Positions 12,001 through 18,000 of a DNA stretch of 64,000 nucleotides are shown piece by piece. Position 1 is the stretch's first letter. Each line of letters begins with the position of its first letter. This DNA is from Octopus vulgaris (Eukaryota): contig OX597830.1 in NCBI GenBank assembly GCA_951406725.2, positions 56,110,001-56,174,000 of the forward strand, given 5' to 3'. The position numbers are program-made.

Positions 12001-15000
12001 ACATAAGTGACCATCCCACAGGAGGAAAACACTTTCTTCAGCCAGTCATGGTCAGCGTTGGCTGGCAGCAATTCCTGAAAATATTGGAATCAACATTTAA
12101 CAATTATGGTATTGTTATATTTTACAAAGAAACAATAGAGTTGATAGAACAATTTCCTTCTTCTTTTTACCATTTATGGAAGTAGAGCTGTGTGATTAAC
12201 CCTTTCGCTACTATATTTCTGACCAAAATACACCCCTCATAAGTTTCAATTAAATTCTAAAATAATCATGAAGTTAGGCTTGTTTCATTAAATAACTGTA
12301 ACTTTTTTTACTTATCAACATATTAAAGTGATATTTGGAACATAATTAAAGAAAGGGTTCTTAATCAATTCTATTGCATAACTTTTGTCTCAAAGTGACT
12401 TTAATTACAGGTAAATCCAGGTAAATTGAGCAAAAGGTAAAAATATTAAAATTACTCTTTTTTTTTAAAGTGTTTCTCTAGATGTTTCTCAAATATAGTA
12501 GTGCTCCCAGATGAGTCACTATGACTTATTTTACAAACTTCAACTAAACTTGGGATCATTAAGGAACTCACATTGCAACCAGATGGTTTCAGGTTCAGCC
12601 CCCAATATATGGCACCTTGGGCAAATGTGCTCTTGGGTTGACCAATGCCTTGTGAATGAATTTGGTAGACGGAAATTGTGTCGATGCCCATCATATGTGT
12701 GTGTGTGTCTTTGTGCCTGTGTTTGCTCTGCCACCACCACTACTCAATAACCTACCTACTTATCACTCTCTCCCATATATATATATATCACATGGAAGAA
12801 GATGGGTGACGGTGTGCCCGGCTGTGAACGAAGGCAAGGCGTTAGCTTTGGAATTGCATAGTTCCACATTTTCTTTGTGCTCTTGTGATATATTTAGAAA
12901 CCTTAAGTTCACAAAATCAGAAAACTGGCAAGGTAACAAGCTTATCAAATCCTTTGAGCATCAGACAAAATGCCTTGTGACAATTCTTCTGGTCCTTTAC
13001 ATTCTGAGTTCAAATTTGGTTGAGGTCAACTTTATCTTTCTTTCCACTTGGATTGATAAACAAAGTACCAGAGTTGATTTAATGGACATTTTTCATAGGC
13101 ACGTGCATGGTGTGTGATTAAGAAGTTGGCTTCCCAACCAGAGTTTCAAATTCAATCCCACTACATGCACCTTGGGCGAGTGTCTTCTACTATAGACCCA
13201 GGTCAAACAAAATCTTGTGTGTGGAATTGGTAAATGGAAACTGTGAGGAAGCCCATCGTATGTATGTGTGCCTATAAGCTTTTGTCTCCTTATTTTGATA
13301 TCATGCGATAATTGTAAACAAATGCCATTGCGATACAAGCAGCGACATTCATTTCCAATATTCTGCAAAACAACGATAGGGTTCATTATATGAGAAGCCT
13401 AGATTATTGAAAAATGGCAGCAAAAAGATAATTGCAGAGGAAAAAAGAAAAAAAAAATGAAAAGAAAGAATAAGAGGGGAATGTTGTGCCTCACCACATA
13501 AACTGTCCTCTCATCCACATCTTTAGGCTCTGTGTATGGAGTCACACGACGTACGCTGTTCTGGTCTTCACTTAACTGGAGACAAATAGTCAGAGAATAG
13601 AAAAAAAGGATGAGGTTGATGAATACATGAGTGCGTGTGTGAAGCTGTAAGGTGTTACTCAGGCACTCAACTATGAGTCCATTGCATCTTATAGCAGAAA
13701 TAGATGTAAGCAAATGGACTTCATAAGATAATTGTTTATTCCTTTGTCAACTCATTTTTACATGCATGCATTCATCTCTATATATATAAACGGCAAAATG
13801 TCTGTGTGTGTGTGTCCTTTATACAAATCCACAATTTTTCAGTTAGAGGGCTCGCACTTTCTATGGTCATTCAAAACCGTCCAAGGGTGGTTGTGCACAT
13901 CTTTACATTTCCTCAGTCACCACACAAAGCCATTAAAAAATCAATAGAAGTGACTTTTTTGTGAATTTTCTATCCAAAACTCAATCAAAATGCCCAAAAC
14001 TTGATACGCCAATTGAATGCCAGCTAGCTGTATGTGATTGGTCGGAGATTTGGACAGTACTTGCGTGTATGTGCGCACATACACAGCTGTATATGCATGC
14101 ACTAGCACTATGACCCTGCAACGCTGGGTCATAGTGCTAGTTCATTATAATTTATTTATTTAAACGATTTAAATTAAAGTTTTTCTGTTCTGTTTTCAGG
14201 TTGGCATTCTCAGATGCCGTTATACAAGGCATCTCTTGGAAGTGACTGGATTATAATCTACCTACTGAAGCATGTCTTTGACAATTCCAGAGCACACTGA
14301 ACTTATTTTGTGGATGAATTTTGGTCCTTCCTGTACACATACAAATATATATTGTAAAAAATGGATAAAGTGACAAACCTGAAGAAAAGTCTCACCTGCA
14401 GCATGGAAGACGTTGACAATGCTTTACGTATGACAGTCAGGTCTTCAGTGTGGGACTTGATACGATTAAATGTTAAAAATAAAGACAAATCAATATCTGA
14501 AAAACAAAGAAAAAAAAATAAAAGCATGAGTTAATTCCTTAGACTGATGTCACCTGGAAAATTCTAATCACAAAGGTATTAACCGGCTTCTATGCCAGTG
14601 GCACTTAAAAGGCACCATTCGAGCGTGATCGTTACCAGCGTCGCCTTACTGGCACTTGTGCCCGTGCTAGTAGGGTGCCAAGAGCACCATCTGAGCATGA
14701 TTGTTGCCAGAGCAGCCAAATGGCTTCCGTGACAGTGGCATGTAAAAGGGCACCATTCAAGCGTGATCGTTACTAACGTCGCCTTACTGTCACCTGTGCT
14801 GGTGGCATGTGTAAAAAGATTTGAGCGAGGTCGTTGCCAGTACCGCCTGAATGGCACGTAAAAAGCACCCACTACACTCTTGGAGTGGTTGGCATTAGGA
14901 AGGGCATCCAGCTGTAGAAACTCTGCCAAATCAAGATTGGAGCCTGGTGCAGCCATCTGGTTCGCTAGCCCTCAGTCAAAATCGTCCAACCCATGCTAGC

Positions 15001-18000
15001 ATGGAAAGCGGACGTTAAACGATGATGATGATTAATTAGTCTAATTTACAAATGATTATTAACCCTTTTTATAAATGTATTTCTAAAGATATAGACTGTC
15101 TATATGTTTCAATTAATTTGGAGAATAATTAAAAATTTTAAATGATTTAGCAAAATAACTGTTCTGTTGCTAATTAGCTGTTTGGAGCATAGGTGTAGGT
15201 GTGATTGCATGGTTAAGAAACTTGCTTCCCAACTATGTGATCGTGGGTTCGGTCACACTGTATGGCAGTTTGGGCAAGTGCCTTCTACTACAGCCTAAGG
15301 TTGACCAAAATCTTGTGAGTGGATTTGGTAGACGGAAACTAAAAGAAGTCCATTGTGTGTGTGTGTGTGTACTCTTGTCTAGACATCACATGATAATTGT
15401 AAATGAGTATTGTCATGATATAAGTGAGGTTGTTTGTTTCCAGTCTTGCCTGGAAAACATGCTTGCGATACAAGCAGTGACATTCATTTCCAATATTCTG
15501 CAAAACATGTCTGGCCATGGGGAAATATTACCTTCCTAAGAAGGTAAGGGTTGAGGACAGCAAGAGCATCTGGCTGTAGAAAATCTGCCTCAACAAGTTC
15601 CATTCGAACCATGCAAGCATGGAAAAGCGGATATTTGAATGAATCACGATCACCATTTTACACTTGTTTTCCATGCGGGAATAGTTTGGATGGTTTGACA
15701 GGAGCAGGCAAGTTTGAAGACTGCACCAAGTTCTGCTGTCTGCTTTGGAAATGGTTTCTATGGCTGGATGCCCATCCTAATGCCAGCCATTTAAAAGAGT
15801 GTACTGGGTGCTTTTAACATGGCACCAGCACCAGTGAGGTAACCAAATAACTTGCAAGAGAAAAACCACCCCAACTGAGGGGAAGGTAGCTTTGTGCCAG
15901 CCGATGAGAAATTAGAGTATGACAGAGAGGCAGAAACAAATGTCTTGAAGCAGAAGAGTTATATGGCTATGCAAGTATAGATAGATAGATAGAGAGAGAG
16001 GGGGGAGGGAGAGAGGGGAAGAGAGGGAAGGAGAGAGAGAGAGAGTAAAAAGCAGGAAAATTCAAATAGAAAAACAAAACTCAACTTACATCCATCTTTG
16101 TCTTTATCAATTTGCTTTTTGAAAAAACGATCTTTGTGTAAATTTGAATTACTGAAGTAGAACTCCATCTGAAGTTAAAAAGAACAACAAAAATACAAAA
16201 ACAATCTATTAGTATTATGAATGCTGATGCATTAAATCATAGACAAGTCCACACCATTCTCACCCCTCTCCCCGTATACACACACACCCACAGTTTTGCA
16301 AACATAAATTTTGGCACAAGACCAGAAAATTCATGGGAGTAGGTAAGTCAATTATATAGACCCCAGTGTTCAACTGGTACTTATTTTACTGATCCCATTC
16401 AAAACAGGCCTGATATGTGGTTCCAGCAAAATGAGGCAACTGCTCATACCACAAGAGAGGGCAGTTGCTGAGGCTATGCTTTGGAGAAAGAATCATTTCT
16501 TGCTGTCATCGCATTCCCCAGACTTGACCAGCCCTACCTTCTTCTTGTTGGGGTACCCAAAGGGGAAGGCTTATGTCAACAAACCAGAAACCCTGGAGTA
16601 ATTTGAAGGAGAATATCACTAGAGAAATCAGGGAAATGGACCTTGAAAAAACACACAACTATCAAGGAACATATTTTGGAAAGGGCACAGATGTGTGGAG
16701 CTGAAAATGGACATCATTTAAAAGATACTTTTCATATATAATGCAGAGTTATGATGAAAAAGGATTAATACAGACTAGCATTATGACCCGGCAATGCCGG
16801 GTCATAGTGCTAGTGCATGCATATACAGCTGCGAGCGTGCACACATACACGCAAGTACTGTCCAAGTTTCCGACCAATCACATACACCTAGCTGGCATTC
16901 AATTGGCGTATCAAGTTTCGGGCATTTTGATTGGGTTTTGGATAGAAAATTCACAAAAAAGTCACTGCTATTGATTTTTTAATGGCTTTGAGGGGTGACT
17001 GGGGAAATGTAAAGATGTGCACGACCACCCTTGGACGGTTTTGAATGACCATAGAAAATGAAAGCCCTCTAACTGAAAAATTGTGGATTTGTATAAAGGA
17101 TACACACACACACAGACAGACATTTTGCTGTTTATATATACAGAGATCACTCTCCATTATCTCCTCTATATTGAATTAAAATTTCATACGCCTGTTTGTA
17201 AAAATAAGAGAGTTATCAAAAATTAAAACCCCTCAGTGACTTTTGGCTCACCCTGAATACACACACACACATATACATATAAACATATCAAACATCATTA
17301 GTTATTATGATTATTTAGGTGTTAAACCATAAACAAGACACATCACTAAATCTGTTGGAAATAGCAGCTAAATTTCTATAAATCATATCACATTGTTATA
17401 AAGAAAGGAAGGATAAACTAGATAATGTAGTTCTAGATATACTGTGTTTGAATAAAAGACAGGATGCTCATAGTTGGAACATCTTTCATAATTGGTTTGC
17501 CCTGAGGATGAACAACTAATGGTAGGAAGGATACATCATATAGTGTAGTTCTAGACATACTGTGTTTGAATAAGAAAACAGGCTGGTGTCATTTATGACC
17601 ATACCTCTGCAGGATCTAGACTGACCTGTGGTTAAACTACGATAGCAGCCCAAAGTAGGCATTGACCCAGTTACACAGTAGCAATTTGTAATTTAGGAGA
17701 GGTTCCACACGTATTACCTGTTCTTTTATTTTAACACAAAGAGCCTTCACACGTTTCTTGGCTGGTTTTTTCTCTTCACTCTGGACCGATTCCATGTCTA
17801 CAGAAAAGAAAAAGACAACAAATTGATTAACCAACAAACCTCTAAGAAATCAACAGATTTGAAACATTTTGTCATTTAACTTTAACACAATTATAGGTAC
17901 AGACATGGGTATGTGGGTAAGAAGCTTGCTTCCCAACTGCATGGTTTCAGGTTCAGTTCCACTGCATCATCTAGGGCAGGTGTCTTCTTTATTTCATTCA

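What the first reader, a model, noticed from the sequence alone, without database searches (positions are those of the whole stretch)
13775..17146. Inverted Helitron pair brackets the two La-motif exons of LARP7: candidate 180-nt circRNA or in-frame La-less isoform
Seen: two full-length, highly similar ~370-bp Helitrons in opposite orientation (13775-14140 and 16775-17146) flank exactly coding exons 2 and 3 (79+101 = 180 nt, phase 0 at both outer ends). Established: inverted intronic repeats promote back-splicing and skipping and are ADAR substrates; coleoids edit RNA heavily. Inference: skipping would delete 60 aa of the La motif in frame, removing UUU-OH binding to 7SK/U6. The circle would begin with AUG, be a multiple of 3 and contain no in-frame stop, i.e. 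a potentially endless ORF.
Basis: partly seen in the sequence, partly recalled or inferred. Interest (0 to 1): 0.7.

Follow-up and report, generated by a model that had tools for sequence, protein, structure and literature searches.

The report
Inverted Helitron pair around LARP7 La-motif exons
Two copies of a small Helitron transposon sit in opposite orientation in the introns on either side of the two exons that encode the La motif of an octopus LARP7 gene; this layout can favour circular RNA or exon skipping, but it is a common kind of arrangement and no RNA evidence could be checked.

Summary
Window 13775-14140 (+) and 16775-17146 (-) are two full-length copies of one ~370-bp element, 340 of 372 aligned positions identical. 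They are the only two copies in the 64-kb window. Both have canonical Helitron ends: host A|TC...hairpin-CTAG|T host, no terminal inverted repeat and no shared target duplication.

The gene on the minus strand is LARP7. The pair brackets exactly exon 2 (16090-16168, 79 nt) and exon 3 (14396-14496, 101 nt). These two exons carry Pfam La profile positions 5-58 of 59. Both outer exon boundaries are phase 0, and there is no in-frame stop.

In silico the two arms form a 348-bp duplex of -607 kcal/mol, which also holds in the fold of the whole 4.3-kb pre-mRNA segment.

The circRNA, La-less isoform and editing claims could not be tested, because no RNA-seq or eukaryotic genome collection was available. 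Published work lowers the expectation. Octopus circRNAs are low overall. Exons of 400 nt or less circularised poorly in a minigene, and stronger hairpins can inhibit circularisation.

Verdict: this is a real but ordinary transposon-derived inverted repeat, a new member of a known kind. It is most likely an intronic ADAR substrate that gives at most minor back-splicing.

The parts
13775..14140 (+). Helitron copy A (366 bp, non-autonomous). It lies in LARP7 intron 3, antisense to the gene, 255 nt downstream (in the RNA) of the exon 3 donor and 199 nt upstream of the exon 4 acceptor.
   Evidence: host A|TC at the 5' end, CTAG|T at the 3' end, no terminal inverted repeat.
16775..17146 (-). Helitron copy B (372 bp, non-autonomous). 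It lies in LARP7 intron 1, in the sense of the gene, 571 nt downstream of the exon 1 donor and 606 nt upstream of the exon 2 acceptor.
   Evidence: 340 of 372 positions identical to copy A, same termini, no target duplication.
14102..14140 (+). 3'-terminal hairpin of copy A. The stem reaches the final CTAG.
   Evidence: -27.7 kcal/mol (RNA parameters); self-inverted match.
16775..16813 (-). 3'-terminal hairpin of copy B.
   Evidence: -29.0 kcal/mol. The loop-proximal changes relative to copy A keep the stem paired.
17718..17795 (-). LARP7 exon 1, coding part (26 codons from the ATG at 17795, donor CAG|gtaata).
   Evidence: 24 of 26 exon codons identical to P0003 residues 1-26 (HSP 88.9% over 27 residues).
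16090..16168 (-). LARP7 exon 2 (79 nt), first half of the La motif. It starts with ATG in phase 0.
   Evidence: Pfam La, E 9.1e-10, profile positions 5-30 of 59; best solved structure is LARP7; 26 of 26 residues identical to P0003.
14396..14496 (-). LARP7 exon 3 (101 nt), second half of the La motif. It ends in phase 0 (CAG|gtgaga).
   Evidence: Pfam La, E 8.4e-5, profile positions 32-58 of 59, below the curated cut-off on its own; 30 of 33 residues identical to P0003.
13495..13575 (-). LARP7 exon 4 (81 nt, phase 0 at both ends).
14852..15824 (.). Weaker inverted repeat wholly inside intron 2 (14852-15037 against 15824-15638, 71% over 189 nt). It would loop out intron 2 rather than compete with the Helitron pair.
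1811..12074 (-). Remaining LARP7 coding exons. RRM1 exon 11910-12074; exon 10362-10466; large charged exon 7375-8121; exons near 6278-6397 and 5520-5618; xRRM exon 3861-4010; exon 1811-1909.
   Evidence: tblastn with P0003. RRM_1 at E 9.4e-12, RRM_3 at E 3.2e-5.

Best explanation
Two independent insertions of one family of short (~370 bp) non-autonomous canonical Helitrons landed in intron 1 and intron 3 of an octopus LARP7 gene, in opposite orientations. In the pre-mRNA the two copies can pair over about 350 bp. That pairing loops out a 2.6-kb segment holding exons 2 and 3 (the La motif) and intron 2.

The anatomy is shown. The consequences are inferred. The duplex is most likely a nuclear, intronic substrate for ADAR hyper-editing. 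It brings the exon 3 donor near the exon 2 acceptor, so a low level of back-splicing (a 180-nt circle) and of the matching exon 1-to-exon 4 skip is possible. The splice sites read as consensus-like and the circle would be very small. I therefore expect normal linear splicing to dominate and the pair to be a selectively near-neutral transposon arrangement, not a regulatory device.
For: The repeat is real with exact ends. The Helitron hallmarks are present in both copies: 5' TC, a 3' hairpin with CTAG, host A and T flanks, terminal-inverted-repeat local score of only 4-5 over 40 nt, and longest shared flank 4 nt in one copy and 0 in the other. These fit the HLE1 definition read in PMC11417382.

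Gene and exon model: Pfam La on exons 2 and 3, RRM_1 and RRM_3 further downstream. LARP7 is the best solved-structure match for exon 2 (1.9e-5, against LARP6 at 5.9e-3) and for the RRM1 exon (2.3e-17, against the next family at 3.8e-6). The large exon is 94% identical to 'la-related protein 7 [Octopus bimaculoides]'. tblastn with that protein places 11 exon-sized matches at 1811-17795 on the minus strand.

Duplex: -606.9 kcal/mol with 348 intermolecular pairs, against about -103 for each arm folded alone. In the minimum-free-energy fold of the contiguous 4301-nt pre-mRNA segment, all 348 pairs made by the arms are arm-to-arm. No comparable competing inverted repeat lies in 3000-20000.

[quoted passage not shown] ZKSCAN1 exons of 400 nt or less circularised poorly or not at all, and strengthening hairpins sometimes inhibited circularisation (PMC4201285, passages). 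GT-AG sites with long pyrimidine tracts can be read directly.
Against: No transcript evidence of any kind was available, so 'mostly neutral, low output' is an expectation and not a result. A duplex this long and this close to the splice sites (255 and 606 nt away) is stronger than the Alu pairs that drive many mammalian circRNAs. In minigenes 30-40 nt of complementarity is enough. The locus could therefore circularise or skip efficiently. The exon-length limit comes from one human minigene and may not carry over to octopus or to a two-exon circle. The family's genome-wide copy number and its autonomous partner are unknown, so the Helitron assignment rests on terminal structure in two copies only.
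Confidence: 0.6

Rival explanations
1. The inverted pair drives appreciable, possibly regulated, back-splicing of exons 2+3 into a 180-nt circRNA with an open-ended reading frame, and/or an in-frame exon 1-to-exon 4 mRNA encoding a LARP7 that lacks the La motif. The balance could be tuned by ADAR editing of the duplex.
For: All structural preconditions are met. The arms are complementary and lie in the two flanking introns. The sites are GT-AG. 79+101 = 180 nt, phase 0 at both outer ends, and no stop in the reading frame of either exon. The deletion would remove Pfam La profile positions 5-58 of 59. Inverted repeats promote circularisation (PMC4201285). Helitron-derived complementary matches are enriched next to Drosophila circRNAs (PMC12404201).
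Against: No back-splice, skip or editing data could be examined. Octopus circRNA levels are reported as low overall, consistent with repression by ADAR (PMC9699675). Exons of 400 nt or less circularised poorly and very stable hairpins can inhibit circularisation. The start context after back-splicing would be CAG|ATGG, with no purine at -3 (read), and no internal ribosome entry element is shown. Only one protein cluster for the O. bimaculoides orthologue (618 aa, La motif present) was returned, and its members could not be listed. A full-text search for 'circLARP7' found 0 papers.
Confidence: 0.2
2. The long intronic duplex acts mainly through double-stranded-RNA pathways other than splicing choice. 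Examples are processing into small RNAs, or nuclear retention or slowed splicing of hyper-edited pre-mRNA. The effect would be to lower LARP7 output rather than to create new isoforms.
For: A 348-bp near-perfect duplex is predicted. Editing in octopus concentrates in intronic and 3'UTR hairpins (PMC9699675). That long hairpins feed small-RNA pathways in some animals is recalled knowledge and was not checked here.
Against: No small-RNA or expression data were available. Introns are normally removed and degraded quickly. Nothing in the sequence points specifically to this outcome.
Confidence: 0.1
3. The repeats are not Helitrons. They would be another short element (MITE, SINE) or the product of a local inverted duplication.
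For: Only two copies were seen. No Rep/helicase partner was found, and no repeat library or eukaryotic genome could be searched. PMC11417382 warns that TC/CTRR signals alone give many false positives. Copy A has a 4-nt flank match (TTCA).
Against: The ends were set by the alignment of the two copies, not by a motif search. Both ends fall exactly on A|TC and CTAG|T, with a terminal hairpin. There is no terminal inverted repeat (score 4-5 of 40), no target duplication in copy B and no poly(A) tail. The flanks are unrelated, which argues against a segmental duplication.
Confidence: 0.05

Closest known systems
Reverse-complementary intronic repeats flanking circularised exons (Alu pairs in mammals; Helitron-derived matches in Drosophila)
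   Same: Two copies of one transposon family lie in opposite orientation in the introns on either side of internal exons, within 1 kb of the splice sites. They are predicted to pair with each other and not within an intron. Helitrons are named as an enriched source of such matches next to Drosophila circRNAs (PMC12404201).
   Different: No back-splice junction has been observed here. The would-be circle (180 nt) is much shorter than the exons that circularised well in the ZKSCAN1 minigene. The host is a coleoid, where circRNAs are reported to be low.
Canonical Helitron (HLE1), non-autonomous derivative
   Same: 5' TC, a 3' stem-loop with a CTRR (CTAG) suffix, insertion between host A and T, no terminal inverted repeat and no target duplication (definition read).
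   Different: The stem of the hairpin runs to the last base and includes the CTAG, rather than lying some bases upstream. That usual spacing is recalled and was not read here. No autonomous partner or genome-wide family was available.
LARP7 (7SK snRNP La-related protein 7)
   Same: La motif, RRM1, a long charged linker and a C-terminal RRM_3/xRRM. LARP7 chains are the best solved-structure matches for exon 2 and the RRM1 exon. The closest named proteins are 'la-related protein 7' of O. bimaculoides and Argonauta hians.
   Different: Nothing unusual was seen in the coding sequence. The only special feature is the intronic transposon pair.
Long intronic inverted-repeat ADAR substrates (hyper-edited transposon pairs)
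   Same: A predicted 348-bp near-perfect intramolecular duplex in a pre-mRNA. Octopus editing is concentrated in intronic and 3'UTR hairpins.
   Different: Editing at this locus was not observed; no RNA data were available.

Membership tests
Canonical Helitron (HLE1) | Element starts with 5'-TC | tested here: met
   Both copies start TCTCT at the alignment-defined end.
Canonical Helitron (HLE1) | [quoted passage not shown] | tested here: met
   Both copies end ...GTGCTAG or ...ATGCTAG. The terminal stem-loops fold at -27.7 and -29.0 kcal/mol.
Canonical Helitron (HLE1) | Insertion between host A and T, without target-site duplication | tested here: met
   Flanks are ...ttcA|TC...CTAG|Ttca (copy A) and ...gtgA|TC...CTAG|Tctg (copy B). 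The longest shared flank is 4 nt in A and 0 in B.
Canonical Helitron (HLE1) | No terminal inverted repeats (these would mark HLE2 or TIR elements) | tested here: met
   The best local alignment of the first 40 nt against the reverse complement of the last 40 nt scores 4-5.
Canonical Helitron (HLE1) | Termini shared with an autonomous Rep/helicase element, and many genomic copies | not testable with these tools
   No eukaryotic genome or repeat library was available. Only 2 copies lie in the 64-kb window.
LARP7 | La motif | tested here: met
   Pfam PF05383 matches exon 2 (38.7 bits, cut-off 37.1) and exon 3 (22.8 bits, below the cut-off alone). Together they cover profile positions 5-58 of 59.
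LARP7 | RRM1 next to the La motif, and a C-terminal xRRM (RRM_3) | tested here: met
   RRM_1 at E 9.4e-12. RRM_3 at E 3.2e-5, 24.4 bits against a cut-off of 22.9.
LARP7 | Closer to LARP7 than to genuine La or other LARPs | tested here: met
   Exon 2: LARP7 1.9e-5, LARP6 5.9e-3, La 0.031. RRM1 exon: LARP7 2.3e-17, next family 3.8e-6. Exon 3 and the xRRM piece gave only weak matches (0.23 and 0.53). The large exon is 94% identical to a protein named la-related protein 7.
circRNA-producing locus driven by intronic complementary repeats | Complementary sequences in the two introns flanking the circularised exons | tested here: met
   348 arm-to-arm pairs, also present in the 4.3-kb fold.
circRNA-producing locus driven by intronic complementary repeats | Observed back-splice junction (RNase R-resistant) | not testable with these tools
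   No RNA-seq collection was available. The readable supplements of PMC9699675 held no occurrence of circ, LARP7, La-related or backsplice. Its PDF supplement cannot be read here.
ADAR hyper-editing substrate | Long, nearly perfect double-stranded RNA | tested here: met
   In silico only: -606.9 kcal/mol, 348 bp.
ADAR hyper-editing substrate | Clusters of A-to-G mismatches between RNA and DNA | not testable with these tools
   No transcript reads were available.

The most novel reading that the evidence does not exclude
The Helitron pair makes octopus LARP7 a natural switch. The duplex would drive back-splicing of the two La-motif exons into a 180-nt circle that starts with AUG, has a length divisible by three and has no in-frame stop, so it could be translated round and round. 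At the same time it would produce an in-frame LARP7 lacking the La motif, which could no longer hold the UUU-3'OH end of 7SK. ADAR editing of the arms would set the ratio. This would link the heavy RNA editing of coleoids to control of the 7SK/P-TEFb system.
Probability: 0.04. Interest if true: 0.65.

Novelty: new member of a known kind. Interest (0 to 1): 0.25.

Why it matters
If the pair does drive back-splicing or skipping, this would be a clean natural test case in a coleoid. The questions it could address are how very long transposon-derived duplexes, strong ADAR activity and splice-site choice interact, and whether a core 7SK snRNP protein can be made without its La motif. It would also be testable by comparing species or alleles that lack one insertion.

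As it stands the finding documents an ordinary consequence of a repeat-rich genome. Inverted transposon copies in neighbouring introns are frequent (17 rows of 100 nt or more within 10 kb in this window, three of them self-palindromes). The mechanism by which such pairs can promote circularisation is already established, including for Helitrons in Drosophila.

Tried and rejected
The question stays open and was not pursued by another route.

2. Supplements of PMC9699675 were listed and searched for circ, LARP7, La-related and backsplice. There were 0 occurrences in the 24,410 characters held as text. The PDF supplement is unreadable here, and the 19-MB data archive may be only partly represented. 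A circRNA list may therefore exist that I could not see.

3. A full-text search for 'circLARP7' gave 0 papers. The search for LARP7 + circRNA + back-splicing gave 6 papers with 5 listed. Of the three I opened, two concern the LARP7 protein and one lists LARP7 only as a differentially expressed mRNA; none reports a circRNA from the gene.

4. PMC9989829 mentions Helitrons only in a methods list, so it was not informative.

5. Rfam at gathering thresholds found nothing in the window, so no known RNA gene hides in the elements.

6. I suspected from recall that 16347-16704 (+), between exon 2 and copy B, is a mariner-type transposase remnant. Pfam gave only an irrelevant weak match (E 0.076) and the solved-structure search gave none. 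The idea is not supported.

7. A segmental inverted duplication was considered and rejected, because the flanks are unrelated. MITE and SINE were considered and rejected, because there is no terminal inverted repeat, no poly(A) tail and no target duplication in copy B.

8. Left out: translating or searching the spliced exon 2+3 or exon 1+4 model as one joined sequence. Exons were handled one by one, and the split codon and junction phases were read.

9. Not checked: orthologous introns in other cephalopods, family copy number, and any transcript data.

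
Full report
**What is in the sequence**

The window has no N and is 38.5% G+C. The repeat finder on 12500-18500 reports one long inverted pair: arms 13803-14141 and 16774-17112 (339 nt, 93% complementary), continued by 13774-15 / 17106-47 across a small indel in a GT-rich run. Gapped blastn aligns 13775-14140 to 17146-16775 with 340 of 372 identities, 6 gap columns and E 2.8e-152. No other full copy exists in the 64-kb window; the remaining hits are the elements' own terminal palindromes and two 35-38-nt low-complexity matches.

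**What the repeat is**

The ends are fixed by where the two copies stop being alike, not by a motif search. At those ends both copies read host-A | TCTCT ... hairpin ... CTAG | T-host.
- The last 39 nt of each copy fold into a stem-loop whose stem includes the CTAG (-27.7 and -29.0 kcal/mol, RNA parameters).
- The differences between the copies near the loop keep or extend the pairing.
- There is no terminal inverted repeat: the best local score is 4-5 over 40 nt.
- There is no consistent target duplication: a 4-nt coincidence in copy A and none in copy B.
- No poly(A) tail is visible.

This matches the definition of canonical Helitrons (HLE1) that I read in PMC11417382: a TC start, a short hairpin with a CTRR suffix, and insertion between A and T, whereas HLE2 has terminal inverted repeats and T-T sites (passages). 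The same paper warns that TC/CTRR signals alone give false positives. Here the ends come from the alignment, which removes most of that concern.

At 366-372 bp the copies are too short to encode a Rep/helicase, so I treat them as non-autonomous; their short reading frames were not scanned. Whether an autonomous partner with the same termini exists, and how many copies the genome holds, could not be tested. The flanks of the two copies are unrelated, so these are two insertions and not a local duplication.

Substitutions between the copies are 26 in 366 aligned columns, a Jukes-Cantor distance of about 0.075. PMC13282606 reports an Octopus vulgaris Helitron expansion at JC 0.09 from consensus, equated there with about 25 My (passages). 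By that yardstick each copy would be roughly 10 My old. This is inference and assumes both copies came from the same master sequence.

**What the gene is**

The exons were examined one by one. The joined (spliced) model was not translated or searched as one sequence.
- Exon 2 (16090-16168, minus strand) gives 26 residues, MEFYFSNSNLHKDRFFKKQIDKDKDG, plus one base.
- Exon 3 (14396-14496) gives two bases plus 33 residues.
- Pfam places exon 2 on La-domain profile positions 5-30 of 59 (E 9.1e-10, 38.7 bits, above the cut-off). It places exon 3 on positions 32-58 (E 8.4e-5, 22.8 bits, below the cut-off on its own).
- The exon at 11910-12074 is RRM_1 (E 9.4e-12). The piece at 3744-4010 is RRM_3, the La/LARP7 C-terminal RRM (E 3.2e-5, above the cut-off).
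- Among solved structures, LARP7 chains are the best match for exon 2 (1.9e-5; LARP6 5.9e-3; La 0.031) and for the RRM1 exon (2.3e-17; next family 3.8e-6). Exon 3 and the xRRM piece give only weak matches, with LARP7 on top or tied (0.23 and 0.53).
- The large charged exon (7375-8124) finds 2 proteins among 3824 candidates: 'la-related protein 7 [Octopus bimaculoides]' (618 aa, 94% identity, E 9e-135) and 'la-related protein 7-like [Argonauta hians]' (58% identity).
- tblastn of the O. bimaculoides protein against the window gives 11 exon-sized matches from 17795 down to 1811 on the minus strand, covering residues 1-600 of 618.

In that protein the order ...KIKEQ | MEFYFS...DKDG-Y-IDLSL...SSMLQ | LSENQ... 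reproduces the exon joins I read from the DNA. This includes the Tyr of the split codon, T from exon 2 plus AT from exon 3. The window therefore comes from an octopus close to, but not identical with, O. bimaculoides.

**Geometry**

All of the following is read.
- Intron 1 is 16169-17717 (1549 nt). Copy B lies 571 nt below the exon 1 donor and 606 nt above the exon 2 acceptor, in the sense of the gene.
- Intron 2 is 14497-16089 (1593 nt).
- Intron 3 is 13576-14395 (820 nt). Copy A lies 255 nt below the exon 3 donor and 199 nt above the exon 4 acceptor, antisense to the gene.
- All splice sites are GT-AG. The donors read gtaagt, gtgaga and gtaata, and the acceptors have long pyrimidine tracts.
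- Exon 1 ends, exon 2 begins, exon 3 ends and exon 4 begins in phase 0.

Removing exons 2+3 would therefore delete exactly 60 codons in frame. A back-splice would join ...CTGCAG to ATGGAG... between codons. Neither exon has a stop in the reading frame, and the split codon is TAT. The 60 residues cover Pfam La positions 5-58 of 59, so the deletion would destroy the La motif rather than trim it.

**Can the arms pair?**

Taken alone, the two arms in RNA sense co-fold at -606.9 kcal/mol with 348 intermolecular pairs, against -103 and -102 kcal/mol for each arm folded on itself. In the minimum-free-energy fold of the contiguous 4301-nt pre-mRNA stretch from exon 1 to exon 4, all 348 pairs made by the arms are arm-to-arm and none go elsewhere.

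A gapped self-comparison of 3000-20000 shows no competitor. The other inverted matches are 69-79% identical and at most 110 bits, and one of them (14852-15037 / 15824-15638) lies wholly inside intron 2, where it would help loop that intron out.

Across the whole window the pair is the best two-locus inverted repeat within 10 kb, at 532 bits and 91% identity. There are 17 inverted rows of 100 nt or more within 10 kb, three of them self-palindromes, and 104 inverted against 121 direct pairs overall. Inverted transposon copies are thus a normal feature of this genome. This pair stands out by quality, not by kind.

**What it most likely does**

The structure is shown and the consequences are inferred. 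Three consequences are possible.
- Editing. The duplex is a textbook substrate for ADAR. In octopus most A-to-I editing is in introns and 3'UTRs, where hairpins are common (PMC9699675, passage). I consider this the most likely molecular consequence.
- Back-splicing of exon 3 to exon 2.
- The complementary exon 1-to-exon 4 skip.

Intronic inverted repeats of only 30-40 nt suffice for circularisation in human minigenes, and the repeats must pair (PMC4201285, passages). In Drosophila the complementary matches next to circRNAs are particularly enriched for Helitrons (PMC12404201, passage).

Several points argue against a large output:
- The same minigene study found that ZKSCAN1 exons of 400 nt or less circularised poorly or not at all, that not all repeats work, and that strengthening the hairpin sometimes inhibits circularisation strongly.
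- The splice sites of exons 2 and 3 look consensus-like.

For translation of a circle, the start context would be CAG|ATGG, with no purine at -3, and nothing here shows an internal entry element.

My estimates are about 0.3 that some back-splice reads exist in deep data, about 0.2 that the output is appreciable or regulated, and about 0.04 for the full functional scenario.

**What could not be checked**

No RNA-seq and no eukaryotic genome collection were available. Back-splice, skip and editing reads, the orthologous introns of other cephalopods and the family's copy number all stay open.
- The readable supplements of PMC9699675 contained none of the search terms. Its PDF supplement is unreadable here, so a circRNA list may exist that I did not see.
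- A full-text search for 'circLARP7' returned 0 papers. The search for LARP7 + circRNA + back-splicing returned 6 papers with 5 listed. Of the three I opened, two concern the protein and one lists LARP7 only as a differentially expressed mRNA; none reports a circRNA from the gene.

As a curiosity, human LARP7 protein is reported in one of those papers to enhance translation of circRNA reporters (PMC13736907, passages). This has no shown bearing on the present locus.

**Verdict**

This is a new instance of a known kind, transposon-derived complementary repeats bracketing internal exons, in a gene where the bracketed exons happen to form a complete, in-frame domain. Interest is modest unless transcript data show that the junctions are used.

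Noticed in passing
window 47148-47600 (+): An open frame with a clear DHHC palmitoyltransferase domain (Pfam PF01529, E 1.2e-20). It is probably an exon of a neighbouring zDHHC gene.
   Followed up: partly
window 19551-20270 (+), 34394-34801 (+), 49568-50056 (-): Retroelement remnants upstream of LARP7 and elsewhere in the window. 19551-19856 matches RVT_1 (E 2.7e-14) and is followed by a PHD-finger-like frame at 19857-20270. 34394-34801 gives a weaker RVT_1 match, and 49568-50056 gives a weak DUF6451 match.
   Followed up: partly
window 16347-16704 (+): Two overlapping open frames in intron 1 between exon 2 and Helitron copy B. They reminded me of a mariner-type transposase C-terminus. That resemblance is recalled only; Pfam and the solved-structure search gave no support.
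   Followed up: yes
window 51870-52421, 27458-27685, 30644-31037: Three stretches that match their own reverse complement: 562 nt at 85%, 229 nt at 90% and 412 nt at 74%. They are large palindromic or foldback repeats.
   Followed up: no
window 9203-9623 and 14617-15032; also 10580-11018: Direct copies of another repeat family sit in LARP7 introns (86% identity over 431 nt between the first two). Each copy contains internal ~140-nt tandem units. It is probably an abundant SINE-like element of this genome, but it was not classified.
   Followed up: no
window 57112-57660 (+): A 182-aa open frame containing a plausible first coding exon (MAEDEDKTPLL...). It has no Pfam match.
   Followed up: partly
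window 58650-59490: A long simple-sequence tract rich in TA/TATG-type units. It produces spurious open frames of more than 250 aa on the minus strand.
   Followed up: no
window 14065-14084: A perfect 20-nt palindrome inside Helitron copy A (query positions 291-310). It is not conserved in copy B, so it is probably incidental.
   Followed up: partly
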